A DNA stretch of 64,000 nucleotides from Amphiscolops sp. MND2022 (lineage: Eukaryota): the NCBI GenBank assembly GCA_964187785.1, contig OZ076409.1:71488001-71552000 (forward strand), read 5' to 3'. Positions 1 to 64,000 of this stretch are shown here, piece after piece. Positions within the stretch are counted from its first letter, which is position 1; the number at the start of each line of letters is the position of its first letter. The notes beneath the pieces were generated by a model that was not told the DNA's origin, did no database searches, and saw only the letters and a program-made list of their open reading frames with translations. The position numbers and the translations under genes are program-made.

Positions 1-1993
1 CTATTTCCTGCTGACATTTTTTTGAAATTTTTGTGTACGTTTCCCCCCCGCCCCCTAAAGGGGTCAATTTTCCCCAATTTTGCACTTATGAGTCAATTTC
101 TCAAAACTGGTGTATCTGAGCGTCTTCCCGGCGGGGACAACTTTTAACAAGCGCTCTTCAGTAGACCTTTTGGACTTTTTACTTTGGTAGTACGTTCACC
201 CCCCAAGGAGGAAATGGCGTTTTTGTGACTTCCGGTGGAGACTTTTTTCACCCAAAAAATAGAAATAAGCCAGTTTTGAGCAGGAAGGAGTGGATTTAAA
301 GTGTCTGTACCCTGCTAAAAATTTGTTGGGCTTGTAGCGATATATCTCATACCAAGTCTGGTTTTCACCCCCAAACCCCCCTTGAGACCAAAATTCACCC
401 AAATTGTTTTACCTCTGTTTGTAGTTTTTTTGCAAAATGTCGTCATTTCCATGGGTAAGGCGTTGAATTAGGGACTCCTAATAGGGTACCAATGTTCAAG
501 TACACTTGCAGTGCAACTGAGTGACCCTTTTGGGGCCTCTCCTGTGTTCGGCAAGGACCGGAAGTGGTGTAAACCCCCCTTTTTTGACGTTTGTTGATCT
601 TGAGACTCGCGCTTAGATGACGTTTATGTCGCGCAAATCCTACAAACCAGTATTAGGATGACATGCTAGCCAACTAGAGAGCACTAAGGGAAACTATACT
701 ATACCGGAAGTAACCCCCCGTGACCGGAAGTTGTCATTTTTGACCGGAAATGGTCCAAAACATAGCGTAAAAGCAGTTTTTCATTGCTTTTAAAGTCAAC
801 TTATTACTTTTTTCACTCTGCGCGAGCGTGCCTTCAGGTTCGTTAGTGTTGCCCGTGCACACTGCAACAAATGTACATCTGTAAAATTTTCGCTATAATA
901 TCGTCGGAGAGAGAAATAACGGGTTTTTGGGATTTTTTTCAAAAATATTAGTCTTTATCTGTCATTTTTACCCAACGTTATTGAACAGTAGAACCACAGG
1001 GGTTAGTCTCTGCCCGATTATATGCCTAACAAAAGCATTTGTCCCATTGGTTGCAGTTTGAGCGTTCTAGCTTTGCCTGGTCACAAGTTAGGAGACTTGA
1101 AAAACTTTCAAAAACATTTCCGAAATTTTTTTCTAAACGTCACGTCTCCCAAAGTTAAGAAACTTCCTCACAACTAGGACTGCAAGTGAATGCATGTGGT
1201 AAGGCCTATAAATGGAAAGAAAAACTCCGTTTAGATTGTCTCTTTATCGTAACGTGACGTTAAGAGATGTTACTTTGAATGTGAGTTTGATAATGCGTCG
1301 AGAAGTAAAAGTGTGTAAATGGAACCTTTGTCTCGATAAATACCCATCGCAATACATGCGATGAACCCCAATTACCCTCAGTTTCAGTTGCTTAGTACAT
1401 CAACGTCTTCCAAGGACCTTTTATCTACTTTGAAAAGTGTCGAAATCATTATTAATATCAGTTATCAAGAAACACTTGAGTACATTCTCATCTCTCCCCA
1501 TCGGGTGAGATGAGAATGTTTTTGCTAAAAGTCAGGTACTACGGCCCCCTTTTGTTTTAATACGATGCATTCTCTGCTTTAGCACACAAATATTTTATTT
1601 CGCCTGATTGTGTGTATACTCTCTGACTTGTTGTTATAAATCTCCCGTCATTACTTTACATAAATATACACAAAAAATCATTATTGTCAACGCCACATAC
1701 ATTTAGACGCCCACCATTCCGTAGGTATGTCGAGGCATACCTTTCGATTACGTATGTCAAAACGCAAACGAGATAAAACCTGCTGAAAGTCTGAAACAGT
1801 GACAAACAATTTTGACTATTTGACATATGGTAGGTTTTAATATGGGAGTTACACATCACTGGCATTTCCCATCATTCCAGCTGACGTCCACATACCAACA
1901 TCAACGCCCACCGTCCGTGGGCATGCCGAGGCATGCCTTTCGACGACGTATGCCAACTTCTGTATATCTACACTCAATTGCGGTAGCGGCTAG
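1..1993 (+). mobile_element. Unit 1 (5'-truncated by window), probable ~2.18-kb class non-autonomous element related to unit 4
   Basis: Ends GCGGTAGCGGCTAG. Type-A palindrome at 1482-1519 and two copies of the subterminal block (1723, 1919). The 3' ~1.3 kb is similar to unit 4. TTCCTGCTGAC at position 5 lies ~180 bp into other units, implying a full length of ~2.17 kb. Confidence 0.7.
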
Positions 1994-1997
1994 GTGG
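1902..1997 (+). other. Representative conserved subterminal block plus junction: CAACGCCCACCGTC(C/T)GTGGGCATGCCGAGGCATGCCCTTCGACGACGTATG(C/G)C...GCTAG|GTGG
   Basis: Present at 22 of 25 unit ends (absent from the ends of units 9, 13 and 14). Contains the inverted repeat GGGCATGCC-GA-GGCATGCCC. Its function as a cis-acting end signal is inferred. Confidence 0.85.
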
Positions 1998-3397
1998 TCG
2001 GGTATTTTTTTTTACTCGTATATGACGTTTGCGAGGCTTTGGGGAGGGCCCCGTGCCGAGCCTGTTCCGAAAATCGCCACATGTAGAAATCTGGCACTAA
2101 AATGCGAGATCTCAAAAAGTAGCCGTTAGAATTCTCTGAAATTTTGCATGTGGCTCAGAATTAATGAGTAATGAAAAAGTGTAGGAGTGAAGGTTGCTGA
2201 AAAAATGGTCCTTGTTGCACTTTTTGCGCAATTTTTGTCTGATTGTTGCGTTTTTTATGTCATTTTCGACTTTTCAAGCAAAAAACTCATGGATGCTTTG
2301 TTCCTAGCGCATCAAGTGTGGAGTACGAAAAGTTGCAGCATCTCCAATTGCGTATGCTGAGAAATTTTGGTTGCCGTCGGGTTACCCCCCACAGAGGTAG
2401 AGGGGTACTTCCGGTTATTTTTGACCCCCTAAATTAGGTAAACTGCTAATTTTTGTAATGAAGCCGTAGATTTAGCGTGTCCGCACCCTGCTGAAGTTTT
2501 GTTAGGCATTTTGAGAGAGACCCAATGACATGTGTTCAGTTCACCACCCATCACCCCCTTGACCGGAAATGAACGTTTTTGTGCACTTTCAGACCGGAAG
2601 TCTCCATTTTCACCGGTAAGGAGGCCTTGTACGACCAACTAGCAGGACATCAAAATTGAAGTATAACCTAGGGTCAACTTAATGACCACGTGTTGTCCAG
2701 TCATGGGTTTCACTATGACCGGAAATGGGCTCAAAACCCCACTTTTAGTAGTTTTTTATCAATTTGAATAGTGTTTGGTCCACATTCAGGTGGCGTAAGT
2801 CACTTGCACCAGTGTGAGTATTAACTGCATGTTCACTGCGTAGACGTAACTGACACTGTCAGATACCGGAAGTAACCCCATGTGACCGGAAGTGGTCAAT
2901 TTTGACCGGAAATGGACCAAAAAGTAGCGTAAAAGCAGTTTTTCACTGCTTTTTAGGGACAATTTTTTACTTTTTTTTCAATCTGAATGCCTCCTTTATA
3001 CTACCAAAGCTAACATCGTTGCCTGTTTTGCTAAAGATTTGGCAATTGATTACCTTTATCAACCCCGATAGCCTTCCAAGTTGACCTTGAGTCAATCTTG
3101 AAGGCTATCTATACTTAAAACGAAAAATCGAGATAAGTTGTTTTCTCCATTACGTTGATATTTTTTCCTTGATGTCAAATTGTTGAGCAAAGACTTTTAA
3201 GCAAATTAATGATCTGAATCTTGTTCAGAGGTCTCACCCTGAGGAAGATTATTTGAGATTGAAGTAAACTGAGAATGAGGTTAGTATTTGTCAACATCAG
3301 AGAATCTTATCAACGCCCACCGTCTGTGGGCATGCCGAGGCATGCCCTTCGACGACGTATGCCAAATAGCGCCACAGGGCGCCCACACTTTTGCTAG
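1994..3397 (+). mobile_element. Unit 2, 1404-bp non-autonomous element
   Basis: Bounded by junctions 1989 and 3393. About 2100-2980 is similar to unit 4 (3670-4550). Type-B palindrome 3067-3109, subterminal block 3328-3347, small hairpin GCGCC-ACAG-GGCGC. Confidence 0.7.
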
Positions 3398-3545
3398 GTG
3401 GAGGTTATTATATATCAATTAAAGTGTTTTTTTCCGGAGTTTGCCTACTTGCCTACTTGCATCAACGCCCACCGTCCGTGGGCATGCCGAGGCATGCCCT
3501 TCGACGACGTATACCAAGATATACCTGGAGCGCGGTAGCCGCTAG
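3398..3545 (+). mobile_element. Unit 3, 148-bp minimal element (5' end plus 3' end only)
   Basis: First 46 bp are identical to the first 46 bp of unit 4 (3546-3591). Then (TTGCCTAC)2, subterminal block 3480-3499 and GCGGTAGCCGCTAG. Confidence 0.65.
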
Positions 3546-5723
3546 GTGGAGGTTATTATATATCAATTAAAGTGTTTTTTTCCGGAGTTTGTGGCTTTGG
3601 AAAAAACAAAAGGCGAGAAATTGGGCACTCCAGGCTGAACCTAAAAACACCCTAAAATTGGCCCGATTTTTTTACGATCTCGAAACCCAGCCGTACGATT
3701 TGGCTGAAATTTTGCATGTGGCTCCTAATCAATGAGTAATGAAAAAGTGTAGGAGTGACTTTTCCTGAAAAAATTGTTTTTGTTGCACTTTTTGCGCAAT
3801 TTTTGACCGATTGTTGCGTTTTTTATGTCACTTTTGACTTTTCAGGCAAAAAACTCATGGATGCTTTGATCCTAGCGCATCAAGTGTTTCGACCAAAAAG
3901 TTGCAGCATGTTCTTTTACGTATGTTGAGAAAATTTGGTTGCCATCGTATTACCCCCCACTGAGATAGAGGGGAACTTCCGGTGGAATTTAGGACCCTAA
4001 AAACGAGGACCTCCTAAATTTCAGCATGAAGCGGTAGTTTTAGCGTGCTCATACCCTGCTGAAACTTTGTTGGCCATAATGAGATAGTCATGATATCATG
4101 TGTTCAGTTCAACCCCCATCACCCCCTGGACCGGAAATGAACTTTTTTGTGCACTATCATACCGGAAGTCTCCAATTTCACCGTTAAGCAGTCCTTGTAC
4201 GAGCAACTACCAGGACATCAAAATTGAAAAACCACCTGAGGTCAACATAGTGACTACGTGTTGTCCAGTCATAGGTTCCGCTATGACCGGAAATGGGGTC
4301 AAAAGCCCCTATTTTGGTTGTTTTTTAACAATTTTACTAGTGTTTGGTCCACATTCAAGTCGCGTAAGTCAATTGAATCAGTGTGAGCAAAAACTGTATG
4401 TTCACTGCGTAGACGTAACTGACACTGGCAGATACCGGAAGTAACCCCCCGTGACCGGAAGTTGTCAGTTTCGACCGGAAATGGTCCAAAATGTAGCGTA
4501 AAACTAGTTTTTTACTGCTTTTTAAAGTCAACTTATTACTTTTTCAATCTCCGCGAGCTTGTAATCAGGTTCGTTTTTGTTACCCGTGCACTTTGCAACA
4601 AATATACATCTGTAAAAGTTTCTCTATAATATCGTCGGATAGAGAAATAACGTGTTTTTGGGACTTTTTTTCAAAAATATTAGACTATATCTGTCATTTT
4701 TACTCAAAGTTTTTCAACTGTACAACCACAGTATTTAGTCTCTGCCCAAATTTTTGCCTAACAAAACTATTTGGTCCATTGGCTTTAGTTTGAGCGTTCC
4801 AGCTTTGCGTGATCATAAGCTAAAGGACTTGAAAAATTTTCAAACTTTTTTCAAAAAAAACTTCTCACATTCATATCTCCCAAAGTGAAGAAACTTCCAC
4901 ACAATTAGGATTGCAAGTGGATGCACGTGGCAAGCCCTATAATTGAAGAGAAAAATGCCGCATAGAACGTCTCTTTATCGTAACTTGACGTTAACGTATG
5001 GTGCTTTGAATGAGAGCTTGATAAGAGGTCGAGAAGTCAAAGTGTGTAAATGGAACGTATTTCTCGTCGAAAACTCACCGGAATTCATGCAATGAACCCC
5101 AATTGTTCTAAATTGCAGTTGCCTACTGCAACAACGTCTTTCTGGTACATTTACCCATTTTCATAAGTGTCAAAATTATTTTTGAATTCAGTTAGCAAGA
5201 AACACTTGAGTACATTTTCATCTCTCCCAAGCGGGTGAGATGAGAATGTTCTTGCTAAAAGCCAGGTACTACGTCCCACTTTTGTTTTAATGCGACACAT
5301 CCTCTGCTTTAGCACATAGATAGTTTATTTTGCCTGATTTTTTGGATACTCTCTGACTTGTTATTATAAACTTCTCGTCATTACTTTACATGAATTTACA
5401 ACCATAAAGCGTTATCGTCAACTCCACATACATTTAGACGCCCACCATTCCGTAGGTATGTCGAGGCATACCTTTCGATTTCGTATGTCAAAACGCAAAC
5501 GCGATAAAAAGTGCTGAAATTCTGAAACAGTGATAAACAATTCTGACAATTTGACATATGGTAGGTTTTTATATGGAACTTAGACATCACTGACATTTCA
5601 CAACATTCCAGCTGACGCCCACATACCAACATCAACGCCCACCGTCCGTGGGCATGCCGAGGCATGCCCTTCGACGACTTATGCCAGTTATTTATATCTA
5701 CACCCAATTGCGGTAGCCGCTAG
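3546..5723 (+). mobile_element. Unit 4, 2178-bp non-autonomous element
   Basis: Bounded by junctions 3541 and 5719. ACCGGAA(G/A)T motif cluster, type-A palindrome ~5211-5249, duplicated subterminal block (5454 variant, 5650 canonical). Confidence 0.72.
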
Positions 5724-6992
5724 GTGGCCGTGTCTTTTCGACGTGCTTTTGCATCGAGGAGTGGGTAGGGCCCCGCGACGACCTAGAAGAATTGGATGCT
5801 CACCGAAACGTGCAGAATTCTACGAGATCTCATAGTTTGAGCCATACGATTTTTCTGAAATTTGGCATGTGGCCTGGAATTGGTGAGTAGGTAAAACGTG
5901 TAGGAGGTGATTTTTCCCAAATTCCACTGTGAGACGAGATATGGGCAAATAACGGTCCCAAAAATGGCAAAAATGCACTTTTTTCAACTTTGTCAGCCCA
6001 TATCTCGTTCCCAGGTGCCCGGAGCGGGACGCGTTAAGCTGATTATAAACTCTAGGGTGTTGAGGCTGTACGGGGAAGTCAGGCCCGTTCCGATCGGACT
6101 TGTAGTCTTGGAGAAATAACGGTATTTTTGGGGAACCTTTTCTAACGGTCCAGCTTATCTTTGCCATTTTTTCGAAAATGTACTCGCCTAAAGGCCTCCC
6201 CCTGGCCGAATTTACTCCCAGCAAAACCATTTGGCCCTAAATACGGAGTTTCAGCGTTCCAGCATTCCCGGGCGAAAAGTTGTGGGACTTGGAAAATTTT
6301 CAAAAATTTTCAAAAAAAATTTTTTTCGTATTCCGGGCCCCCAATGAAGGGGAAACGACCCCCCAACCAGTATTTTGAGTGAATTCATGTGGAAAGCCCT
6401 TGTTTTGACGAGAAAAATACCGTTTAGAACATCTTTTTATCTTGACTCAACGTTGACTTATGACGTTTTGAATGTGATGTAAGGATGTAGGAGGCATGTG
6501 ATAAGTTGATGTTTTGAGTCTTTATCTCATATGAAAGCGGTTGAGATGCAAGCTGTCCTGCTCAAAACGTCTTTCGTTGTAACTTTCCAGTGCACCAATA
6601 CCCTTTGGTGTCATATAAACATACTTTTTGTCGATATATTAACAATTTTAATGTATTTATTCCAATTTTTATTATCTTATAACTCAAAACAGTTGAGTAC
6701 ATTTCATCTCCCTTTCGGGGGAGATGAGAATGTACTCGCTAAAGACCTAGCGCCATGACCAAAAATTTGAAACTCACGTTTTTTATCTTCTTACAGACTT
6801 GTTTTTGTATTTTTTCGGAATTTTTTAAAAATTAATATACTTGAAATACATTACTTGACTTTACTACTACAACCCACCTCCAACGACAACGCCCCCCTGC
6901 TTGCATCAACGCCCACCGTCCGTGGGCATGCCGAGGCATGCCCTTCGACGACGTATGCCAAATGCCCAGTGCCACGCAGTCATTATCGCTAG
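5724..6992 (+). mobile_element. Unit 5, 1269-bp non-autonomous element (~1.27-kb class)
   Basis: Bounded by junctions 5719 and 6988. Type-A palindrome 6695-6737, block 6924-6943. Middle (~6190-6470) is similar to unit 6. Confidence 0.7.
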
Positions 6993-8264
6993 GTGGCCGC
7001 GTCTTTTTGATGGACTTTTATCCTTGAGGCGCGGGTAGGGTCCTGCGCCGAGCTGGTGAAAATATACTACGTCCAAATCGCCCGTTCCGGAAACGATCTC
7101 AAAACTGGCCCGTACGATTTTCCTGAAACTTTGCATGTGGCCCCCAATTGGCGAGCAATGAAAAAGTGTAGGAGGCCATTTTTCCCAAATTCCACTGTGA
7201 GAGGAGATATATGAAAAAAACGGACCCCAAAATGACGAAATTTTCACTTTTTGACCAAAAATGTGACATTATCTCCTCAGACAAGGCTCGGAGCAAAATT
7301 TGTCAGAACCCAAACCTGCAGCAGACTGTTAGAGCAGTGCACACAGTAAGTTCGAAGGAAATCGGATAATCACATGTTGAGAAATTGACGATTTTCCGAC
7401 AATTTTTTTTGCATTTGCAGTCTATCTCTGCCGTTTTTTGCCCAAAATTTTTTCGAGACCCTCTCCTAAAGACCTCCCCTGGCCGGTTTACCTCCCAAAA
7501 AAACCATTTGGCCCTAAATACGAAGTTTCAGCGTTTTAGCATTCCCCAGTAAAAAGTTATGGGACTTAGAACTTTTTCAAAAACTTTCAAAATTTTTCTA
7601 AAAAAGTTCAGGCCGCCCAAAGTGAAGAAACTTCCACACAACTAGTATTACAAGTGAATGCATGTGGAAAGCCCTGCACTTGACGAGAAAAATGCCGTTT
7701 AGAACGTCTTTTTATCTTAACTTGATGTTGACTTATGATCTTTTGAGTAGCGTATAACACGTGATCACAGTAGTGAAGATCCTAATTTTCAATAATTTTC
7801 GAACAATAACGCATGAAAAGAACCTGGAAAAGGTTCCGATGGGTCAGTTGGGATGTCTGAATCAAGTGTACATTCCCGTAGTGTATAGCGGATGTGTTTG
7901 GGACTTATTAGAAATTGTGATATATTTTATACAAGTCTTTGTTTCTCTTAGAATCTTATGCAGTTGAGTACATTCCATCTCCCTCTCAGGGGAGATGTGA
8001 ATGTACGTTTGCCAAATGCCTTGTAAAGCTGACAATTTTGATGGTATAAAATGATTAAACAAGTGTGACTAGCGTTTGCCGAATCACTGCAGCAAAAAAT
8101 CTTGAAACTTTAGTGAGATTGAATGCTTTTTGTCTCTAGTGTTTTTTCTTGTGTAGCCGACTTCCACATCCAAATATCAACGCCCACCGTCCGTGGGCAT
8201 GCCGAGGCATGCCCTTCGACGACGTATGCCAAATACCATATGCCACGCAGTCTTTCCCCGCTAG
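6993..8264 (+). mobile_element. Unit 6, 1272-bp element (near-identical to unit 15)
   Basis: Bounded by junctions 6988 and 8260. Near-identical to 29910-31183 but with different neighbours. Type-A palindrome 7968-8006. Confidence 0.78.
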
Positions 8265-10499
8265 GTGGGGGGGATATATCTCCACTTTTTTTGCGACCGC
8301 GGGTAGGGTCCTGTCGGGAGCTTCTATTTACCAAGCTTACGGCGCTATATACTAGAGAAAATTTTTCCGGCACCGAACTTTTTTTTGAACCATAGGAATT
8401 GTACCATTTTTTGCATGCGGCCCTAATTTGGGCATACAAGACGAAGTTCCTGCTGACGTTAAGCGATGGTTTCATTGTGTAACGAGATATAGCCACTTTT
8501 TGGTGCGAATTTTGAGGTATTTTTGAGAAGAATTTTACAAACAGCTCGAATGCAAAAAATTGAAAAACTTGTGACAATCGACCTATCACTGGTTTAAACC
8601 TTCGATTCTTTGCCCTAGCAATGCACTAGACCCAAAAGATCTAAAACTTTTACATTTTCCAAAAATTTGACCAAATTGACTCGGGTTTCACTACTATATG
8701 TAACCAATGTGACAAAAACACCTCAGAAAAAAATTTTCATTTGCTTAAATTTAGAAACCTTGGTATCCATGGTTTCTGTCGGAACCTACTCGCAGCCAAA
8801 CACTCAACAGTTTGCATCCAATGTGAATTTAAATTTTTTTTTCGAGGTCATAGGTGTTTCACAAGGATTTCACAACTTAGTTTCATATTACAAATTGGTC
8901 ATTTTCAACATCATATTTCCATCGAGGCATGTCGGATAGAGTCTTATTGCTCACGAACGGTCCTACTGGCAACGTGTTAACCATTTATAGAAATACAAAG
9001 TTATAAAAAAATTTTTCACCCGTTCTTCCATCATTTTTCAGACATTCGGAACTTATCTTAGAAAAATTTCGTCTCAAAAACCCATTTTTTGTCAGGTCGA
9101 AAACTCAAATTCAGCTTTTTAAGCACAATTATTAACTCTGACGTAACCAGTGGGGCCCATGATACTCAAAACAACGATTGGGGTTGGTACCATTGGCTCA
9201 AATAACATATGAGTCGCGATAAGACGTTATTTTTAGCCATACGTCTCAATTGAGGTAAACATCTCGCAAGCCAGGGATCTCTGTGAAATGTGATTTCATC
9301 AAAAAGTTACCCATTTTTGCAAATTACTATGTGCACAGAGTGCGTAGGGTGAGTTTCAGCACTATAATGAGGTTTTTGAAGGATTCGGGTTGCTCAAAGG
9401 GTGGTATGAGACATTTTTTTCCCATATACTACTGTATTTTCCAAAAATTTTAGCCCATTATCTGGAAAAACTAACTTGACAAAATACTTTCAGTTACTCT
9501 ATTCGAAGCTTAGAATATAGATGAACACTGTGGTTGATCAGAAACTATTAACTATTTTGTTTTTAGAAAAAAACTGCCTTGCATGTGTTACATTAGTGGC
9601 AGGAAAAATACCAGTAGCTCCAAAAATCAAAAATTTGGACGGACAGACTTCCAATGATGCAAAACAAAAACGTTTCAACAACTTCTGACGCCACTTTTTT
9701 TACCCAAGAGGTTCGAAAACACCATTAACAATGCTGACATTCGCAATAAATAAGATCGAGGTCTATTTACTAACACTTAGGTTTTAAATTTTTTTCTCGG
9801 AAACCCATTATTGTCAGGTCGCAAATTCAAATTTGGTTTTGGAAGCAATACTTTTCACTCTGAAGCAAACCGTTGGGCCCAAAATACTCAACAACAACAA
9901 AAAGACTATCACCATATGCTCTAATAACATATGAGATGCGACTGTATGTTTTTAACACAATAACTCTCATTCTGAAGTAAACATGTTGAAAGCCTTGAAT
10001 CACCGTGAGAAGTGATTTCATCAAAAAATATTTCTTTTTCGTCAATCACTAAATACACAGAACCCGTTGTGTTAGTTTCAGTCGTGAAATGAGGTTCTAC
10101 CGTAATATCGGCTGCTCAAGGTGTTGTATAAGGCAAAAACTTCCTCTTTTCTACTAACTTCTTCAAATATTTCAACCCTTTGTCACACGAAGTTAATATT
10201 CAAAATCTCTTTGAATTGTTTCTTAAGGTTGTGGTGAATTGTTAGAACAATTACTATGATCGAAGAATGCTAGTATTGGTGTTTGGACCATGTCCGGATG
10301 AACAAATCGCAAAATCAAGAAAAAATTGTTTCCTTTTTTGGTTATTTTGGCAGTACTAAAAATGTTAGCTGATAAATAATTTTTTCGAAGGCACCATTGG
10401 ATTCCGCTCAAAAAGTTGATTATAAGACATGTGTAATAACCCCGTATCTTTTCAATTTAGATAAATATAAAAAGCAAACTTTTTTGACGAAAATCCTAA

Positions 10500-11800: not shown

Positions 11801-12058
11801 TGGGCGATAATTAAAAAGACCAATTTTATTCTGAAGAAAACCATAATATGTTCAATATAAGAAGTGAATCATTCCACATATATACCCTGTCTAATATTCT
11901 AAATTAGCAAAAAAATATATACTTGATGTTTTTTGAATGTGAGCTTCATAAAAGGTTGAGATGTGATAATACGTAAATGGATTCCAAGTTTCATCGAAAA
12001 GTCAATGGAATACGTCCAATCAACTTCAATCTTAACAATTCGATAACAAAAAACACTT

Positions 12059-12100
12059 AAGTACATTCCATCTCCCTATCGGGGAGATGAGAATGTACTT
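12059..12100. other. Representative type-A internal palindrome AAGTACATTC-CATCTCCC...GGGAGATG-A-GAATGTACTT
   Basis: Long inverted repeat with one unpaired base. Seen in units 1, 4, 5, 6, 7, 10, 12, 15, 16, 18, 20 and 23. Confidence 0.85.
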
Positions 12101-53436: not shown

Positions 53437-56400
53437 GTGGGGGGATATATCTCCACTTTTTTTGCGACCGCGGGTAGGGTCCTGTCGGGAGCTTCTATTT
53501 ACCAAGCTTACGGCGCTATATACTAGAGAAAATTTTTCCGGCACCGAACTTTTTTTTGAACCATAGGATTTGTACCATTTTTTGCATGCGGCCCTAATTT
53601 GGGCATACAAGACGAAGTTCCTGCTGACGTTAAGCGATGGTTTCATTGTGTAACGAGATATAGCCACTTTTTGGTGCGAATTTTGAGGTATTTTTGAGAA
53701 AAATTTTACAAACAGCTCGAATGCAAAAAATTGAAAAACTTGTGACAATCGACCTATCACTGGTTTAAACCTTCGATTCTTTGCCCTAGCAATGCACTAG
53801 ACCCAAAAGATCTAAAACTTTTACATTTTCCAAAAATTTGACCAAATTGACTCGGGTTTCACTACTATATGTAACCAATGTGACAAAAACACCTCAGAAA
53901 AAAATTTTTATTTGCTTAAATTTAGAAACCTTGGTATCCATGGTTTCTGTCGGAACCTACTCGCAGCCAAACACTCAACAGTTTGCATCCAATGTGAATT
54001 TAAATTTTTTTTCGAGGTCATAGGTGTTTCACAAGGATTTCACAACTTAGTTTCATATTACAAATTGGTCATTTTCAACATCATATTTCCATCGAGGCAT
54101 GTCGGATAGAGTCTTATTGCTTACGAACGGTCCTACTGGCAACGTGTTAACCATTTATAGAAATACAAAGTTATAAAAAAATTTTTTCACCCGTTCTTCC
54201 ATCATTTTTCAGACATTCGGAACTTATCTTCGAAAATTTCGTCTCAAAAACCCATTTTTTGTCAGGTCGAAAACTCAAATTCAGCTTTTTAAGCACAATT
54301 ATTAACTCTGACGTAACCAGTGGGGCCCATGATACTCAAAACAACGATTGGGGTTGGTACCATTGGCTCAAATAACATATGAGTCGCGATAAGACGTTAT
54401 TTTTAGCCATACGTCTCAATTGAGGTAAACATCTCGCAAGCCAGGGATCTCTGTGAAATGTGATTTCATCAAAAAGTTACCCATTTTCGCCAATTACTAT
54501 GTGCACAGAGTGCGTAGGGTGAGTTTCAGCACTATAATGAGGTTTTTGAAGGATTCGGGTTGCTCAAAGGGTGGTATGAGACATTTTTTTCCCATATACT
54601 ACTGTATTTTCCAAAAATTTTAGCCCATTATCTGGAAAAACTAACTTGACAAAATACTTTCAGTTACTCTATTCGAAGCTTAGAATATAGATGAACACTG
54701 TGGTTGATCAGAAACTATTAACTATTTTGTTTTTAGAAAAAAAACTGCCTTGCATGTGTTACATTAGTGGCAGGAAAAATACCAGTAGCTCCAAAAATCA
54801 AAAATTTGGACGGACAGACTTCCAATGATGCAAAACAAAAACGTTTCAACAACTTCTGACGCCACTTTTTTTACCCAAGAGGTTCGAAAACACCATTAAC
54901 AATGCTGACATTCGCAATAAATAAGATCGAGGTCTATTTACTAACACTTAGGTTTTAAATTTTTTTCTCGGGAACCCATTATTGTCAGGTCGCAAATTCA
55001 AATTTGGTTTTGGAAGCAATACTTTTCACTCTGAAGCAAACCGTTGGGCCCAAAATACTCAACAACAACAAAAAGCCTATCACCATATGCTCTAATAACA
55101 TATGAGATGCGACTGTATGTTTTTAACACAAAAACTCTCATTCTGAAGTAAACATGTTGAAAGCCTTGAATCACCGTGAGAAGTGATTTCATCAAAAAAT
55201 ATTTCTTTTTCGTCAATCACTAAATACACAGAACCCGTTGTGTTAGTTTCAGTCGTGAAATGAGGTTCTACCGTAATATCGGTTGCTCAAGGTGTTGTAT
55301 AAGGCAAAAACTTCCTCTTTTCTACTAACTTCTTCAAATATTTCAACCCTTTGTCACACGAAGTTAATATTCAAAATCTCTTTGAATTGTTTCTTAAGGT
55401 TGTGGTGAATTGTTAGAACAATTACTATGATCGAAGAATGCTAGTATTGGTGTTTGGACCATGTCCGGATGAACAAATCGCAAAATCAAGAAAAAATTGT
55501 TTCCTTTTTTGGTTATTTTGGCAGTACTGAAAATGTTAGCCCATAAATAATTTTTTCGAAGGCACCATTGGATTCCGCTTAAAAAGTTGATTATAAGACA
55601 TGTGTAATAACCCCGTATCTTTTCAATTTAAATAAGTTTAAAAAGCAAACTTTTTTGACGAAAATCCTAAAAATCATACCATTTCCTAAAAAATTTCAAA
55701 TGCACTCCATTTGACGTATAAGAATAGCACAGAAAACTATCATATACCGATCAACTCTACTCCCATTGTAGACTATTAGAATTTTGTTTTGATTGAATTT
55801 TGAAGAATATTAAAAAATTTTGAACCCTCCAAAAATGGACCAAAATTACACGAAAAAATTGACCTTAAAATTTTAAAATGTCAAAAAATCATCAAAACCA
55901 CAGCTTCTTGGGGTTCTATCAACTCCACGTGGTCCACAGAGTACGCTAAAACAGGTTTTACCCGTTTTTGAGCAATATGTGAAAAAGCCGACATTTTTGG
56001 GAAAGAAAAACATACCATTTCCTAAAATATTTCAAATGCACGCCATTTGCCGTATGAGAATAGCACAGAAAACTATCATATACCGATCAACTCTACTCCC
56101 ATTGTAGACTATTAGAATTTTGTTTTGATTGAATTTTGAAGAATATTAAAAAATTTTGAACCCTCCAAAAATGGACCAAAATTACACGAAAAAATTGTCC
56201 TTAAAAAAAAATGTCGAAAAATCATCAAAACCACAGCTTCTTGGGGTTCTATCAACTCCACATGGTCCACAGAGTACGCTAAAACAGGTTTTACCCGTTT
56301 TTGAGCAATATGTGGAAAAGCCGACATTTTTGGGAAAGAAAAACATAACATTTCCTAAAAAAATTCACATGCACGCCATTTGGCGTATAAGAATAGCACA

Positions 56401-58201
56401 GAAAACTATCATATACCGATCAACTCTACTCCTATTGTAGATTATTAGAACTTTGTTTTGAATGAATTTTGATGGATAATAAAAAATTTTGAACCCTCCA
56501 AAAATGGGCTAAAATTACACGAAAAAATTGACCCTAAAGTTTTAAAATGTCTAAAAATCATCAAAACCACAGCTTCTTGAGGTTCTATCAACTCCACATG
56601 GCCCACAGAGTATGCCAAACCAGGTTTTGCGCGTTTTTGAGCAAAATTTAGGAAAGCCGATTTTTTTGAGGAAGAAAAACATATCATTTCCTAAAAAACT
56701 TCAAATGCACGCCATTTGGCGTATAACAATAGCACAGAAAACTATCACATACCAATCAACTCTACTCTTTTTGTAGATTACCAGAAGTTTGCTTAGAAAA
56801 ACTTTTGATGAATATTTATAAATTTTAAACCCTCCTAATATGGGCCAAAATCACACGGAAAAATTGACCCTAAGTATTAAAATGTCAGATATTCATCAAA
56901 ACCCCAGCTTCTTGGGGTTCTATCATTTCCATATGACTTTCAGAGTATACCAAACAAGTTATTAACATTGGGCGATAATTAGAAAGACCAATTTTATTCT
57001 GAAGAAAACCATAATATGTTCAATATAAGAAGTGAATCATTCCACATATATACCCTGTCTAATATTCTAAATTAGCAAAAAAATATATACTTGATGTTTT
57101 TTGAATGTGAGCTTCATAAAAGGTTGAGATGTGATAATACGTAAATGGATTCCAAGTTTCATCGAAAAGTCAATGGAATACGTCCAATCAACTTCAATCT
57201 TAACAATTCGATAACAAAAAACACTTAAGTACATTCCATCTCCCTATCGGGGAGATGAGAATGTACTTTTCAAAAACTAAAAACTTAGATCTTTCTATCT
57301 TTTGTAACACTTACTGTAACAGCTGAAATGATGAAAGAATAATTATTCTTCTAATAACTTCAAGATTTTTTGCTTCACCTTTTATTTCTGCAGAACAAAA
57401 CCATAAGACATACATATTTTTCGCAGTTAAGTTCGACTGTATTACCCAGTGAACAAAGGTATGACAGGAAGATTACAAGTTGTCTCAAAACTTTCCCGCC
57501 TTCCAAAATCATGAAACGTCTACACAACCAAGATAGTAAAGGAATGAATGTGGAATGCATCATTTTAGTTAAAATAAATAACGTGTAGAACTTACCTTTA
57601 TCTGAAGATGACGTTGATTTATGATCTTTAGAGGATAGTTCAATTTTTGACCATAATAGTGCGAAACTAATTATTATATGAATAATGGCGTGGAAAGCGT
57701 TCAGAAATTGCAGTATTTTCGATTCGAGCATGTATGCGTGGGTTCCTTTGGTGGCATTAGCTTAGTGTACATGATGGAAGTTTTCGATCTATTATGATAA
57801 AATTTACTCACAAGTCTTTGTTTTTCCTATTTTTTTATGCCATTAAGTACATTCATTCTATCCCCTTCTCTGGGAATGTACGTTTGCCAAATGACTGTCA
57901 TCCAAATTTTGCATTCGCGAAGAGTTTAAATACATAAACACGTCTTTAGCGTTTCCAAATCACAACCGATTAACATTTTTTAAATTTTTTTTTATGAAAA
58001 TTGATAATTTGTTTTGATTTTGGTATCTTCTACTTTTATCATCCATCATAACAAGCACCTTACCATGTCTCTCGCTTGTCTTCATTTTACAACGCCACAT
58101 AGCGTTCCGACTCCCACCGTCTGTGGGCATGCCGAGGCATGCCCTTCGACGACGTATGCCAACTACTTTTTATATCTACACCCGATTGCGGTAGCGGCTA
58201 G
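53437..58201 (+). mobile_element. Unit 23, 4765-bp element
   Basis: Near-identical to unit 7. Junctions 53432 and 58197. Confidence 0.78.
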
Positions 58202-60186
58202 GTGGGCGGGGGTAATTCCCCAACAAAAATTACGGCCGGCGGGTTGGGTCCTGCCGGACGTCAAATAGCAAAGAATATCTAGTAGGAAACGGCGACACAG
58301 AATCGCGATTTTTAAATCTAACCACAATTTTTTGGACTTGGAGTGCATGCGGCCCTAAAATGCCCATACGAATCGAAGTTCCTGCTGACGTTAAGCGATT
58401 GAAATAATATATAAAAAGTTATGGCCCATTTTTCACTCACAAAGAAGGGTAAAATGAGGAAATTTTTAACAAAGTCGCTGATAACTCAAAATGTGTTAAT
58501 TTTTGGACATTGACTGTGAAACAAGCTTGGAACCTTCATTTCGTGGCTGTGGCATTGCACTGAACACAAAAGATGTAAAGTTTTTAGATTTTTTGAAAAT
58601 TCGAAATTTTTGAAATTTTTTTCACTACTATCAGTACCCCATATGTCAAAAACGCCTCAGAAAAATTTTTTTATTTGCTTTAAATTGGAAACCTTGGTAT
58701 CCATGGTTTCTGTCGGATCCTACTCGCAGTCAAACACCCAACAGTTTGCATCCAATGTGGAAATAAAAATTTTTTCGGGGTCATAAGCGTTTCACAAGGA
58801 TTTCTCAACTTGGTTTCAATTTACAAATTGGTCACATTGAACACATTATTTTCATCGAAGAGCGTCAGATACCGCCCTAAAGCTCACGAACGGTCCTACT
58901 GGCAACGTAGCAACCATTTATAGTAAAATAAAAGATTAAAAAAATTTTTTCACCCGGTCTTCAGTCATTTTTCAGTCATTCGGAACTTAACTTAGAAAAA
59001 TTTCGACCAAAATACCCATTTTTTGTCAGGTCGAAAAATCAAATTCAGATTTTTAAGCAAAATTATTAACTCTGACGTAACTCATGGGGCCCATGATACT
59101 CAAAACAACGATTGACACTGGTATCAATGGCTCCAATAACATATGAGTCGCGATCGGACGTTATTTTGAGCAATACGTCTCAATTGAGGTAAAGATCTCG
59201 CAAGCCAGCGATCACTGTCAAATGTGATTTCATCAAAAATTTACTCATTTTTGTCAATCATTATGTGCACAGAATGCGTAGGGTGCGTTTCAGCACTATA
59301 ATGAGGTTTTTGAATGCATCGAGTTGCTCAAGGGGTGGTACGAGACATTTTTGTCCCATATACTACTGTATTTTCCAAAATTTTTAGCCCAATATCTGGA
59401 AATACAAACTTGACAAAATACTTTCAACTACTTTATTCAAAGGTTACAATATAGATGAACACTGTGGTGGATCAGAAACTTTCATCTCTTTCGTTTTCCG
59501 AAATATTTTCCTTCGCATGTGTTATATTTGTATCAGAAAAAAAATCGAAACTGAAAAATACGCTATTTTGCTAATATAGAATCGCAATGATTGTGCCTAA
59601 AAACTCTTTAAACACTTCTAACGCGACCTTACGCACCCAAAATGATCGAAAATGCTATTCACAATGGTGACATGTGCTCTTTCAACGATCCTGGCTGGAC
59701 AAGGTTTGCATATTTTTCAAGTACCTGTCAGCTGAATCTTGTGATAGCCTTTTAAGTTGGCCTTGTGTCAACTTGGGAAGGCTATCACATCAAACAACCA
59801 TCAACAAAAATAATATTTGTTTATTGGATATTACAGTTGATACCTTATTTCGTGATTCTATACTACCGTTAGTATATTCCATGAGGTCACCTTACGATTG
59901 CATTCAGACTTTGATAAAAACCTATGAACTCAAAGTCACATTTATATATTTTTTGCCCAAAAAAATCATCAAAAACATCTAAAACATATAAAATAGAGTC
60001 TTTAACTTTTTTACGTTTCAAGTTTCTGCCGTTATTAAGCCAATCAACTTCCTACAGCCACGCTCTCTGTCATACTGTACAACGCCACATAGTGTTGCGA
60101 CGTGCACGGTCTGTGGGCATGCCGAGGCATGCCCTTCGACGACGTATGCCGAATACCGCGGGCCTACGCCCGCGCTCCCCGGCTAG
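58202..60186 (+). mobile_element. Unit 24, 1985-bp element (near-identical to unit 26)
   Basis: Junctions 58197 and 60182. Type-B palindrome ~59741-59788. Confidence 0.78.
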
Positions 60187-62176
60187 GTGGGCGGGGGTAA
60201 TTCCCCTTCAAAAAATTCGGCCGGCGGGTTGGGTCCTGCCGGACGTCAAATAGTGTGAAACATCCAGTAGGAAACGGCGACATTTATCAGCGATTTTAAA
60301 ATTGAACCGTTAGAATTTGGACTTGGAGTGCATGCGGGCCCAAAATGCCCATACGAATCGAAGTTCCTGCTGACGTTAAGCGATAAAAACACTTTATAAA
60401 AAGTTATGGCCCATTTTACGTTCACTTAGAGAGGTAAAATGAGGAAAATTTTAACAAAGTTGCTGATAACTCAAAATACATTAATTTTTGGACTTTGACT
60501 GTGAAACAAGCTTGGAACCTTCATTTCGTGGCTGTGGCATTGCACTGAACACAAAAGATGTAAAGTTTTCACATTTTTTGAAAATTCGACATTTTTGAAT
60601 TTTTTTCACTACTATCAGTACACTATATGTCAAAAACACCTCAGAAAAAAATTTTTATTTGCTTAAATTTAGAAACCTCGGTATCCATGGTTTCCGTCAG
60701 TACCTACTCGCAGCCAAACACTCAACAAATTGCATCCAATGTGAAAATAAAATTTTTTTCGGGGTCATAAGCGTTTCACAAGGATTTCTCAACTTAGTAT
60801 TAATTTACAAAATGGTCATTTTGAACACAATATTTTCATCGAGGCTTGTCGGCTATAGCCTTAATGTTCTAGAACGGTCCCACTGGCAACGTAGGAACCA
60901 TTTATAGTAATAGAAAGTTTTAAAAAAAATTTTTCATCCGGTCTTCAGTCATTTTTCAGTCATTCGGAACTTAACTTAGAAAAATTTCGACCAAAATACC
61001 CATTTTTTGTCAGGTCGAAAATTCAAATTCAGATTTTTAAGCAAAATTATTAACTCTGACGTAACCCATGGGGCCCATGATACTCAAAACAACAATTGAC
61101 ACTGGTATCAATGGCTCCAATAACATATGAGTCGCGATAAGACGTTATTTTGAGCAATACGTCTCAATTGAGGTAAAGATCTCGCAAGCCAGCGATCACT
61201 GTGAAATGTGATTTCATCAAAAATTTACTCATTTTTGTCAATCACTATGTGCACAGAGTGCGTAGGGTGAGTTCCAGCACTATAATGAGGTTTTTGAAGG
61301 CATCGGGTTGCTCAAGGGGTGGTATGAGACATTTTTTTCTATATACTACTGTATTTTCCAAAACTTTTAGCCCATTATCTGGAAAAACTAACTTGACAAA
61401 ATACTTTCAATGATTTTATTCAAAGGTTACAATGTAGATGAACCCAGTGGTTGATCAAAAACTTTCATCTCTTTCGGTTTCCGAAATAATTCCCTTCGAA
61501 TGTGTTACATTTGTAGCAGGAAAAAAACCGAAACTAAAAAATACGCGATTTTGCTGAGATAGAATCACAATGGTTGCCCCTAAAATCTCTTTAAATACTT
61601 CTAACGCAACCTTATGGACCCAAAATGATTGAAAATGCCATTCACAATGCTGACATGTGCTCTTTCGACGATCCTGGCTAGACAAGTTTTGCATATTTTT
61701 CAAGTACCTGTTAACTGAATTTTGTGATAGCCTTTTAAGTTGGCCTTGTGTCAACTTGGGAAGGCTATCACATCAAAAAACTTTCATCAAAAATATTTTT
61801 TGTTTATACAATAATGTAGTCGATAGTTATTTTCGTGATTTTACACTACCGTTAGTACCTTCCGCCAGGTCAGCTGACGATTGCATGCTGTCTTTGATAA
61901 AAACGTATGAACACCAAGAAAATTTTGTTGTATTTTTGTTGAAGAAAAGTATTAATAAATAATAAAAATATAATTCTAACCTTAAACAACTATAAATTTG
62001 CTTAACCGTTATTAGTCCTACCACCTATCATCAGCCTATGCCATGGCCCGGTGATTAGTAGTACAACGCCACATAAAGTAGCGACGCCCACAGTCTGTGG
62101 GCATGCCGAGGCATGCCCTTCGACGACGTATGGCAATTTTAGCGTAGCCCGCGGTCACTACCGCGGTAGCAGCTAG
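60187..62176 (+). mobile_element. Unit 25, 1990-bp element (mosaic)
   Basis: Junctions 60182 and 62172. First ~1.07 kb is essentially identical to units 8/11 and the 3' part is closer to unit 17. Terminal hairpin CCGCGGT-CACT-ACCGCGG 62149-62166. Confidence 0.76.
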
Positions 62177-64000
62177 GTGGGCGGGGGTAATTCCCCAACA
62201 AAAATTACGGCCGGCGGGTTGGGTCCTGCCGGACGTCAAATAGCAAAGAATATCTAGTAGGAAACGGCGACACAGAATCGCGATTTTTAAATCTAACCAC
62301 AATTTTTTGGACTTGGAGTGCATGCGGCCCTGAATTGCCCATACGAATCGAAGTTCCTGCTGACATTAAGCGATTGAAATAATATATAGAAAGTTATGGC
62401 CCATTTTTCACTCACAAAGAAGGGTAAAATGAGGAAATTTTTAACAAAGTCGCTGATAACTCAAAATGTGTTAATTTTTGGACATTGACTGTGAAACAAG
62501 CTCGGAACCTTCATTTCGTGGCTGTGGCATTGCATTGAACACAAAAGATGTAAAGTTTTTACATTTTTTGAAAATTCTAAATTTTTGAAATTTTTTTCAC
62601 TACTATCAGTACCCCATATGTCAAAAACGCCTCAGAAAAAATTTTTTATTTGCTTTAAATTGGAAACCTTGGTATCCATGGTTTCTGTCGGATCCTACTC
62701 GCAGTCAAACACCCAACAGTTTGCATCCAATGTGGAAATAAAAATTTTTTCGGGGTCATAAGCGTTTCACAAGGATTTCTCAACTTAGTTTCAATTTACA
62801 AATTGGTCACATTGAACACATTATTTTCATCGAAGCGCGACAGATACCGCCCTAAAGCTCACGAACGGTCCTACTGGCAACGTAGCAACCATTTATAGTA
62901 ATATAAAAGATTAAAAAAATTTTTTCACCCGGTCTCCAGTCATTTTTCAGTCATTCGGAACTTAACTTAGAAAAATTTCGACCAAAATACCCATTTTTTG
63001 TCAGGTCGAAAAATCAAATTCACATTTTTAAGCAAAATTATTAACTCTGACGTAACTCATGGGGCCCATGATACTCAAAACAACGATTGACACTGGTATC
63101 AATGGCTCCAATAACATATGAGTCGCGATCGGACGTTATTTTGAGCAATACGTCTCAATTGAGGTAAAGATCTCGCAAGCCAGCGATCACTGTCAAATGT
63201 GATTTCATCAAAAATTTACTCATTTTTGTCAATCATTATGTGCACAGAATGCGTAGGGTGCGTTTCAGCACTATAATGAGATTTTTCAATGCATCGAGTT
63301 GCTCAAGGGGTGGTACGAGACATTTTTGTCTCATATACTACTGTATTTTCCAAAATTTTTAGCCCAATATCTGGAAATACAAACTTGACAAAATACTTTC
63401 AACTACTTTATTCAAAGGTTACAATATAGATGAACACTGTGGTTGATCAGAAACTTTCATCTCTTTCGTTTTCCGAAATATTTTCCTTCGCATGTGTTAT
63501 ATTTGTATCAGAAAAAAAACGAAACTGAAAAATACGCTATTTTGCTAATATAGAATCGCAATGATTGTGCCTAAAAACTCTTTAAACACTTCTAACGCAA
63601 CCTTACGCACCCAAAATGATCGAAAATGCTATTCACAATGGTGACATGTGCTCTTTCAACGATCCTGGCTGGACAAGGTTTGCATATTTTTCAAGTACCT
63701 GTCAGCTGAATCTTGTGATAGCCTTTTAAGTTGGCCTTGTGTCAACTTGGGAAGGCTATCACATCAAACAACCATCAACAAAAATAATTTTTGTTTATTG
63801 GATATTACAGTTGATACCTTATTTCGTGATTCTATACTACCGTTAGGATATTCCATGAGGTCACCTTACGATTGCATTCAGACTTTGATGAAAACCTATG
63901 AACTCAAAGTCACATTTATATATTTTTTGCCCAAAAAAATCATCAAAAACATCTAATATATATAAAATAGAGTCTTTAACTTTTTTACGTTTCAAGTTTC
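62177..64000 (+). mobile_element. Unit 26 (3'-truncated by window), ~1.99-kb class
   Basis: Starts at junction 62172 and is near-identical to unit 24 up to the window end. Confidence 0.75.

What the first reader, a model, noticed from the sequence alone, without database searches (positions are those of the whole stretch)
1..64000. Integron-like array of non-coding cassettes that exchange neighbours exactly at a 9-bp GCTAG|GTGG site
Seen: 25 identical junctions, all co-oriented, with no intervening DNA. The same 3' end (…CGCGCTCCCCGGCTAG) is followed by several different 5' ends: GTGGTCAAGG at 15017, GTGGGCGGGGGTAATTCCCCAAC at 19345, GTGGGCGGGGGTAATTCCCCTTC at 44704 and GTGGGGGGATATATC at 53437. 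Near-identical pairs (6/15, 7/23, 8/11, 12/18, 19/21) have different neighbours, and the change falls exactly at the 9-mer. Inference: units behave as independent mobile cassettes inserted site-specifically into a junction that each insertion regenerates, as expected for integration of circular intermediates whose end-to-end joint is GCTAGGTGG. Established: a hairpin plus CTRR 3' end is the Helitron signature, but canonical Helitrons start with TC and insert in A|T, whereas these start with GTGG. This may be an undescribed self-targeting rolling-circle (HUH) or tyrosine-recombinase element system whose enzyme is encoded elsewhere.
Basis: partly seen in the sequence, partly recalled or inferred. 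Interest (0 to 1): 0.92.

Follow-up and report, generated by a model that had tools for sequence, protein, structure and literature searches.

The report
Self-targeting Helitron-like transposon arrays
The window is part of a long train of rolling-circle transposons from an apparently undescribed Helitron-like group that insert almost only at the seam between two of their own kind, which builds large shuffled arrays instead of scattering copies through the genome.

Summary
In detail: 25 co-oriented junctions, 0.14 expected by chance. The array runs unbroken over all 214 kb read, and 50 kb past the window it holds a 14,083-bp unit with the same ends that encodes a 2,545-aa RepHel (HUH-Y2 nuclease, Pif1 helicase, GIY-YIG domain). 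The genome gives 134 such Rep matches; 9 units read end to end all run GTG[GC]...CTRG inside arrays. The invariant site is CTRG|GTG[GC], not the 9-mer (88 of 155 junctions). Near-identical units almost never share neighbours (1 of 34, 1 of 39), so they insert one at a time. About 96% of one 3'-end type abut another element. Rare host insertions fall at CTNG|DT with no duplication, shown at two empty sites. The transposase forms a clade apart from HLE1 and HLE2 (100/99, root unresolved), with relatives in aquatic metagenomes. Ten literature searches found no description; Repbase could not be searched. Verdict: a new Helitron variant that uses an IS91-like rule (target equals its own end) and self-targets its junctions. 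Mobility by this enzyme and circular intermediates are inferred, not shown.

The parts
1..64000 (+). Part of a head-to-tail array of non-autonomous Helitron-like elements; continues at least 49 kb left and 99 kb right
1..1993 (+). Unit, 2.19-kb family, cut by the window start
1994..3397 (+). Unit, 1.40 kb
3398..3545 (+). Minimal 148-bp unit: about 45 bp of 5' end joined to about 100 bp of 3' end
3546..5723 (+). Unit, 2.18 kb
5724..6992 (+). Unit, 1.27 kb; 79-86% like the left ends of three autonomous units over 300-520 bp
6993..8264 (+). Unit, 1.27 kb; 98.4% identical to 29910-31183
8265..13033 (+). Unit, 4.77 kb with internal 336-bp tandem repeat; 98.6% identical to 53437-58201
13034..15016 (+). 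Unit, 1.98 kb; 99.3% identical to 17361-19344
13063..13087 (+). Example of the 5' subterminal stem with its conserved G-rich loop (about 40 nt from the 5' end)
14945..14964 (+). Example of the conserved 3' subterminal hairpin (8-bp stem), 50-75 nt before the end
15012..15020 (+). Example junction; cut placed between CTAG and GTGG
15017..16085 (+). Unit, 1.07 kb, other 3'-end type (no GGCATGCC block)
16086..17360 (+). Unit, 1.28 kb, single copy in the DNA read
17361..19344 (+). Unit, 1.98 kb
19345..24105 (+). Unit, 4.76 kb; 98.8% identical to 37954-42715
24106..25175 (+). Unit, 1.07 kb, other 3'-end type
25176..29909 (+). Unit, 4.73 kb with internal 353-bp tandem repeat, third 3'-end type
29910..31183 (+). 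Unit, 1.27 kb
31184..35959 (+). Unit, 4.78 kb
35960..37953 (+). Unit, 1.99 kb
37954..42715 (+). Unit, 4.76 kb
42716..44703 (+). Unit, 1.99 kb; 98.8% identical to 49467-51453
44704..49466 (+). Unit, 4.76 kb
49467..51453 (+). Unit, 1.99 kb
51454..53436 (+). Unit, 1.98 kb
53437..58201 (+). Unit, 4.77 kb
58202..60186 (+). Unit, 1.99 kb
60187..62176 (+). Unit, 1.99 kb
62177..64000 (+). Unit, 1.98 kb, cut by the window end. The nearest autonomous unit (14,083 bp, RepHel) lies beyond it at window-equivalent 113601-127683 = G000:C1:71601601-71615683

Best explanation
The units are non-autonomous members of a divergent Helitron-like group. Long units in the same arrays (12-20 kb) encode a RepHel with HUH-Y2 nuclease, Pif1 helicase and, in most families, a C-terminal SLX1-like GIY-YIG domain, plus a second, RPA-like protein. 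SHOWN: shared ends, coding content, precise ends, no target duplication, target CTNG|DT, unit-by-unit shuffling, strong bias for junctions. INFERRED, by analogy with Helraiser and IS91: RepHel nicks the plus strand at CTRG|GTG, peels off one strand, stops at the next CTRG after the 3' hairpin and closes a circle whose joint is CTRG|GTG. It then nicks a chromosomal site of the same form and swaps strands with its two tyrosines. An existing junction carries the nick sequence plus both terminal stems, so it is a far better target than a bare host CTAG. Each insertion turns one junction into two, so an array founded at a host CTNG|DT site grows by itself and mixes dozens of families in one orientation.
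For: 14,083-bp unit with the same ends and a 2,545-aa ORF in the same array; Pfam Helitron_like_N 5e-8, PIF1 2e-6, GIY-YIG 1.6e-3; Rep model (pLDDT 76.7) has Helraiser as its only match under E 0.001, 9e-7; both histidines and both tyrosines invariant in 19 Rep regions. 9 of 9 autonomous units read end to end start GTG[GC] and end CTRG; the 14-kb unit has a 99.6% identical copy with other neighbours and a 3,071-bp deletion derivative. Of 43 unit pairs at 98% or more, 40 align from first to last base; same left neighbour 1 of 34, same right neighbour 1 of 39. One 3'-end motif is followed by GTG[GC] 1,870 times against 50 other cases in two filtered searches. Empty sites: 22 of 22 copies of a tRNA-like repeat read CTAG|AT with nothing added or lost, and 10 of 15 copies of a second repeat read CTAG|TTGG. 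Host 5' flank is CTNG at 10 of 12 sites reached without selecting on that flank; host 3' flank has T second in 47 of 50. The 5' stem covaries across 81 ends (6.6 bp against 5.4 shuffled, highest of 500 shuffles 5.85). Related clans cluster along the array (28 of 87 adjacent against 9.3), so recognition probably reaches beyond the 7-mer.
Against: No circle, transcript or new insertion was seen. The window's units match autonomous units only at 66-96% over 57-650 bp of terminal DNA, so their own partner was not among the 9 read. 30 of 42 dispersed 3' ends had no recognisable 5' end in the DNA fetched, which a clean circle insertion does not predict; one has a 12-bp duplication. Four full-length or near-full-length host insertions lack CTNG upstream. 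The GIY-YIG motif was not found in 3 of 10 RepHels and lacks the usual arginine in P0001. Junction bias was counted for one 3' motif and one 5' motif only.
Confidence: 0.78

Rival explanations
1. Same elements and enzyme, but only a weak CTNG|DT preference; arrays arise from local hopping, open chromatin or purging of dispersed copies rather than from recognition of the junction.
For: Host insertions at CTNG|DT exist; clans cluster locally; many dispersed copies look old and broken.
Against: About 96% of one 3'-end type abut another element, although a 1.07-Gb genome should hold on the order of a million CTAG|DT sites (estimate from the window's base composition). Units hold internal DNA, yet among the 88 units of the 214-kb stretch none of unusual length suggests nesting except possibly one or two singletons. 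Local hopping does not explain base-exact joints.
Confidence: 0.12
2. Arrays come from rolling-circle concatemers, unequal crossing-over or homologous integration of circles, as proposed for tandem Helitrons in plant centromeres.
For: Tandem Helitron arrays are reported in plants and bats (passages of PMC5876387, and PMC5148889). 6 of 134 adjacent pairs are of one family at 95%.
Against: 87 families among 144 units; no adjacent pair at 99.5% or more; near-identical units keep a neighbour in only 1 of 34 and 1 of 39 cases.
Confidence: 0.04
3. The bottom strand is the transferred one, starting at the CTAG end, so that 3' ends are always exact and 5' ends are often truncated; the GIY-YIG domain makes a second nick.
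For: Dispersed 3' ends outnumber dispersed 5' ends; young 5'-truncated copies exist (63 bp at 100%, 177 bp at 98.9%); one has a 12-bp duplication starting at the CTAG target.
Against: The sampling started from 3' ends, and the 3' motif covers older families than the 5' motif. Helraiser uses the plus strand. The host CTNG lies on the 5' side, as the essential tetranucleotide beside oriIS does in IS91.
Confidence: 0.15
4. A tyrosine or serine recombinase encoded elsewhere exchanges double-stranded circles at the junction; the RepHel genes are passengers.
For: A short shared core with no duplication fits conservative site-specific recombination.
Against: Every long unit read carries RepHel and ORF2 and no other frame of 300 aa or more; CTRG end after a hairpin is the Helitron signature. 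The genome was not searched for recombinases.
Confidence: 0.03
5. Assembly artefact.
For: No sequencing run was available to check the joints.
Against: 87 distinct families, precise host-flanked array starts, matching empty sites, and a protein 100% identical over the searched region on a separately assembled 336-kb contig (P0002).
Confidence: 0.02

Closest known systems
HLE1 (canonical Helitron, e.g. Helraiser)
   Same: RepHel with HUH-Y2 and Pif1; 3' hairpin then CTRR; no target duplication; RPA-like gene downstream; non-autonomous derivatives.
   Different: 5' end GTG[GC] not TC; target CTNG|DT not A|T; separate transposase clade with longer spacing before the HUH motif; C-terminal GIY-YIG; 5' stem; nearly all copies in mixed arrays.
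HLE2 (Helitron2/Helentron, HINE/DINE-1)
   Same: RepHel; hairpins near both ends; internal tandem repeats in non-autonomous copies; OTU domain in some; Rep profile scores slightly closer to HLE2 than to HLE1.
   Different: No DUF6570, no AP endonuclease, no T|T target, no terminal inverted repeats noticed; CTRG 3' end.
HLE Paramecium (PMC13085455)
   Same: Third, deep Helitron clade; long ORFs; sequence-specific, strictly oriented insertion that builds a genomic compartment; glutamate in Walker B.
   Different: By eye, Hel01Copy001 has the canonical short spacing before HUH and no GIY-YIG; ends in CCAA; targets telomeric repeats, not its own junction. No tree was possible.
IS91/IS1294 (bacterial Y2 rolling-circle IS)
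   Same: Target tetranucleotide resembles the element's own terminator tetranucleotide; orientation-specific; no duplication; subterminal palindromes at both ends.
   Different: No helicase; bacterial; not described as building mixed arrays in the passages read.
Replitron
   Same: Eukaryotic HUH transposon; short motif at both ends; occasional variable duplications.
   Different: Y1 Rep without helicase; here Y2 plus Pif1.
Integron cassette arrays (recalled)
   Same: Shuffled, co-oriented units joined at a short core site, probably via circles.
   Different: No IntI or attI; any junction accepts; enzyme is carried by array members; units carry no cargo genes in the DNA read.

Membership tests
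Helitron-like elements (superfamily) | RepHel: HUH-Y2 Rep fused to Pif1 helicase | tested here: met
Helitron-like elements (superfamily) | No target-site duplication | tested here: met
   two empty-site families; 1 of 42 dispersed ends has a duplication, on a truncated copy
Helitron-like elements (superfamily) | Rolling-circle transposition through circles | not testable with these tools
   no reads or assay
HLE1 | 5' TC | tested here: not met
   units start GTG[GC]
HLE1 | 3' hairpin then CTRR | tested here: met
   CTAG/CTGG ends; hairpin block in 115 of 144 units
HLE1 | Insertion between A and T | tested here: not met
   CTNG|DT
HLE1 | Transposase groups with HLE1 | tested here: not met
   separate clade 100/99 in Rep and helicase trees, but only 2 HLE1 rows from one family group of this genome
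HLE2 | DUF6570 marker domain | tested here: not met
   absent in 9 clade proteins scanned; present in 7 of 10 ORFs with Rep of the genome's other Helitrons
HLE2 | Insertion between T and T | tested here: not met
HLE2 | Short terminal inverted repeats | not tested
   none noticed in the ends printed; no systematic search
HLE2 | Transposase nested within HLE2 | tested here: inconclusive
   clade sits on a long stem in an unresolved node with HLE1 and HLE2 rows
HLE Paramecium | Same transposase clade | tested here: inconclusive
   by eye only: one whole ORF and two ORF ends differ in HUH spacing and lack GIY-YIG; no alignment or tree
HLE Paramecium | CCAA end and insertion in telomeric repeats | tested here: not met
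   CTRG ends, non-telomeric targets
Replitron | Y1 Rep without helicase | tested here: not met
   two invariant tyrosines and Pif1
Integron / tyrosine-recombinase element | Tyrosine recombinase linked to the array | tested here: inconclusive
   no such ORF in the long units read; genome not searched for one

The most novel reading that the evidence does not exclude
A distinct, widespread eukaryotic lineage of Helitron-like elements whose RepHel acts as a site-specific strand exchanger on its own end-to-end junction (nick sequence plus both terminal stems). It builds cassette-like arrays over megabases in which at least a dozen transposase families, 29-100% alike, share one landing site. The same logic may be old: the 5' stem-loop recurs in distant aquatic eukaryotes, and the unexplained randomly ordered 'Mosaic' satellite beside Paramecium Helitrons carries the reverse complement of the same junction and could be such an array of minimal units.
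Probability: 0.45. Interest if true: 0.9.

Novelty: new variant of a known kind. Interest (0 to 1): 0.8.

Why it matters
It would add a further deep branch to the Helitrons and a host-sparing strategy in which a DNA transposon makes its own safe harbour: each insertion creates a new target. It gives a direct test of how Helitron transposases choose targets, an open point for Helraiser-type enzymes. A RepHel that inserts 0.15-20 kb units base-exactly at a defined short junction, without duplication, would be a candidate tool for repeated site-specific insertion. It also means that megabase regions likely annotated as unknown satellite are living transposon arrays.

Tried and rejected
Replitron: rejected (Y2 plus helicase). 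Concatemers, segmental duplication and homologous integration: rejected as the main source. The 9-mer as invariant site: rejected. General target duplication on truncated copies: 1 of 42 only. No sequencing run was listed, so junction reads, circles and expression are untested; this is no evidence. Viral contigs gave only Pif1 helicases, no Rep of this clade; genome contigs was not scanned (one search gave no usable pattern). ORF2: no Pfam family; model weak (pLDDT 47.9); best matches are RPA/Teb1/POT1 OB folds at E 0.003 and Z 6.3 or less, a lead only. 25 accessory ORFs of metagenome loci: no informative Pfam family. Ten homologues looked up gave no organism names. The raw count of the 5' motif in metagenome loci is weak (6 overlapping hits against 2.3 shuffled, highest 5); only its position is telling. 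A Rep profile search of the PDB by sequence reached Helraiser only at E 0.24. Earlier findings of this scan: none returned.
Full report
OBSERVATION. The window holds 25 exact copies of the 9-mer, all on +; shuffles give 0.14. They divide it into abutting units of 148 bp to 4.8 kb. The quoted 5' ends and the five near-identical pairs (98.4-99.3%) check out. The window has no transposase sequence. It lies at G000:C1:71488001-71552000 of a 1.07-Gb eukaryote genome, where one 28-base subterminal block occurs 4,241 times; 98 of the first 100 listed fall in clusters, by my reading of the coordinates. The organism is unknown; an animal is my guess.

THE ARRAY AND ITS SITE. Over the 214 kb read (window plus 50 kb left, 100 kb right) 88 units follow each other without a break. 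Over all array DNA fetched, 155 junctions and 144 whole units were found with the pattern CTRG|GTG[GC] plus a nearby end motif; only 88 read GCTAGGTGG, 19 have CTGG and 39 have GTGC. The pattern itself limits what variants can appear. The units form 87 families at 95%. Of 43 pairs at 98% or more, 40 align from first to last base; their left neighbours are the same family in 1 of 34 cases and right neighbours in 1 of 39 (chance 1.2%). Adjacent units are of one family in 6 of 134 cases and never 99.5% alike. So units arrive singly. Related clans do cluster: 28 of 87 adjacent pairs share a clan at 85% against 9.3 shuffled, and GTGG and GTGC starts run in blocks (81 of 87 against 56.1; none of 5,000 shuffles as high).

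ENDS. 115 of 144 units carry an 8-bp hairpin 50-75 nt before the 3' end, often with a second, family-specific hairpin closer in. 135 of 144 carry a G-rich motif about 40 nt from the 5' end, at the tip of a stem whose arms covary between families (mean 6.6 bp in 81 ends, 5.4 when halves are swapped, highest of 500 swaps 5.85).

THE ENZYME. 49.6 kb past the window end the same array holds a 14,083-bp unit with these ends and a 2,545-residue frame, P0001. Pfam finds Helitron_like_N, PIF1 and weakly GIY-YIG. A profile of 29 relatives matches Pif1 helicases (1e-25), Helraiser (2e-14), SLX1 nucleases (7e-11) and OTU. The Rep model (pLDDT 76.7) matches only Helraiser below E 0.001. Two histidines and two tyrosines are invariant in 19 Rep regions. 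The genome gives 134 Rep matches, many in open frames of 2,200-2,850 aa; 36 lie in C1 70.5-76.5 Mb, all on +. That cluster starts at C1:70454837 after a host CTAG, but it contains array ends and at least one inversion, so it is not shown to be one continuous array. I read 11 RepHel loci: 9 units end to end, all GTG[GC]...CTRG inside arrays, 12.2-19.8 kb; one showed only its 3' junction and one showed no junction in 20 kb. Nine proteins are 29-35% identical to P0001 and one is 99.6%. Each family has a second Cys-rich frame of 320-460 aa downstream (split in the 14-kb unit) with a weak likeness to RPA-type OB folds. Window units share 66-96% identity with terminal DNA of these long units over 57-650 bp; a 3,071-bp unit is a direct deletion derivative of the 14-kb one.

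TARGET. One 3'-end motif is followed by GTG[GC] 1,870 times, by a base other than G 32 times and by G-N-not-G 18 times. The last two searches required a non-A last base and so saw about 70% of cases, and some combinations were not covered; the share in junctions is about 96%. One 5' motif has 934 copies; three filtered searches for odd upstream bases gave 5, 9 and 6 rows, most of them array variants. The second base after a non-junction end is T in 47 of 50. At 12 full-length insertions or array starts not chosen by their 5' flank, the host reads CTAG 7 times, CTTG twice, CTCG once and otherwise twice; one old copy with an unclear start was left out, and two more found by asking for a non-G flank lack CTNG. 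Sites with a non-G flank place the cut after the G. Empty sites: 22 of 22 copies of a tRNA-like repeat read CTAG|AT exactly as the two flanks of the filled copy; 10 of 15 matches of a second repeat read CTAG|TTGG, agreeing with the flanks of a 16-kb array over 11-12 bases downstream. Against a clean model: 30 of 42 dispersed 3' ends had no recognisable 5' end in the 2.4-6 kb fetched; some are young and truncated, and one has a 12-bp duplication beginning at a host CTAG.

RELATIVES. phmmer finds 761 clusters at 50% identity for the Rep region; the word-based search found 44 proteins, most with the same domain order. 41 metagenome loci encode relatives; the ORF2 profile hits 14 of them, on either strand. 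The 5' motif occurs in 4 loci (3 distinct elements), each on the coding strand within 210 bases of the contig start and in a 6-7 bp stem; in two a CTAG or TTAG lies 48-62 bases upstream. The raw count is near chance; the position is not. Whether arrays exist in those organisms is not shown; L091 has one possible CTAG junction.

PLACE AMONG HELITRONS. Against HLE1 (2 rows) and HLE2-type proteins (5-9 rows) from the same genome, the clade is one side of a branch at 100/99 in Rep and helicase trees (near-duplicates were dropped before building, 24 of 62 Rep rows). Rooted on 13 viral Pif1 proteins its stem is as long as that of HLE1 and the node joining the three groups is unresolved. It lacks DUF6570, the HLE2 marker. 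The reference sample is small, so 'third lineage' and 'fast-evolving offshoot of HLE2' both stand.

MECHANISM. See Best explanation. The rule 'target tetranucleotide equals the element's own terminator' is that of IS91, whose target is CTTG/GTTC and terminator CTCG (passages of bioRxiv 10.1101/2025.01.24.634351). Helraiser nicks the plus strand of its circle joint (passages of PMC5876387). Combining them predicts that a head-to-tail junction is itself a perfect nick site. That step, the circle, and any role of GIY-YIG in resolving the branched intermediate are inference.

LITERATURE. Ten full-text searches found no description of these ends, this domain order as a clade, or mixed self-targeted arrays. 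Seen: PMC11417382 passages (HLE1/HLE2 definitions, one GIY-YIG case in a moss HLE2, four unclassified clusters not characterised); PMC10288648 first part and passages; PMC8788227, PMC5876387, PMC5148889, PMC9977147 and bioRxiv 10.64898/2026.09.17.752431 passages; PMC13085455 abstract, passages, sections 14, 15, 18 and parts of supplement 3. That paper's third clade differs by eye in HUH spacing, lacks GIY-YIG in the three ORF ends seen, ends in CCAA and targets telomeres. Its supplements 5 and 9 could not be read; 9 holds the end alignments that bear on this comparison. HELIANO's supplements were not opened and its unclassified clusters may include this clade. Repbase, Dfam and most subscription journals were not searchable, so prior naming of the family cannot be excluded. 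Integron features are recalled.

VERDICT. Real. A new variant of Helitron-like element, with a distinct transposase clade, new ends and target rule, and self-targeted array building. Interest 0.8.

Noticed in passing
PMC13085455 supplement 3, part 1: Several units of the Paramecium 'Mosaic' satellite, whose random order the authors call unexplained, contain CAC|CTAG, the reverse complement of this junction; the 'green' unit starts CTAG and ends CCAC. It may be an array of minimal elements built the same way. Seen by eye only.
   Followed up: partly
window 3398-3545: A 148-bp unit made of the two ends alone, with a short direct repeat at the join; it bounds the sequence needed in cis if it moved as such.
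   Followed up: partly
window 10504-11757, 21575-22841, 25966-27144, 33415-34695, 40185-41451, 46934-48268, 55670-56925: Internal tandem repeats of 336 or 353 bp, 3.3-4 copies, in the 4.7-kb units; their fixed copy number gives the narrow size class.
   Followed up: no
L194 (G000:C4:63901700-63904100): Young 177-bp 3' fragment with a 12-bp duplication that starts at a host CTAG|GT target.
   Followed up: partly
L016:15-520 region upstream of RepHel and unit positions 1308-1811 of the 14-kb unit: A 168-aa frame upstream of RepHel that reads like an SGNH/GDSL hydrolase fragment (label recalled, not tested).
   Followed up: no
G000:C1:72444487-72446511 and L022: Inversions and face-to-face joins inside arrays, where orientation flips.
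   Followed up: no
L032, L046, L175-L188: A high-copy tRNA-like repeat with CTAG in its anticodon arm serves as a founder target at least once, possibly several times.
   Followed up: partly
L091:5781-5914 and contig end: Two element 3' ends in opposite orientation 6.8 kb apart in a metagenome contig, one followed by a start like that of L090.
   Followed up: partly
L143-L158: The genome also holds ordinary HLE1 and several HLE2/Helentron families, dispersed on many contigs.
   Followed up: partly
L018:1100-7400 region: At the end of the C1 3.48-Mb array the last unit runs on for several kb without a recognised 3' end in the DNA read.
   Followed up: no
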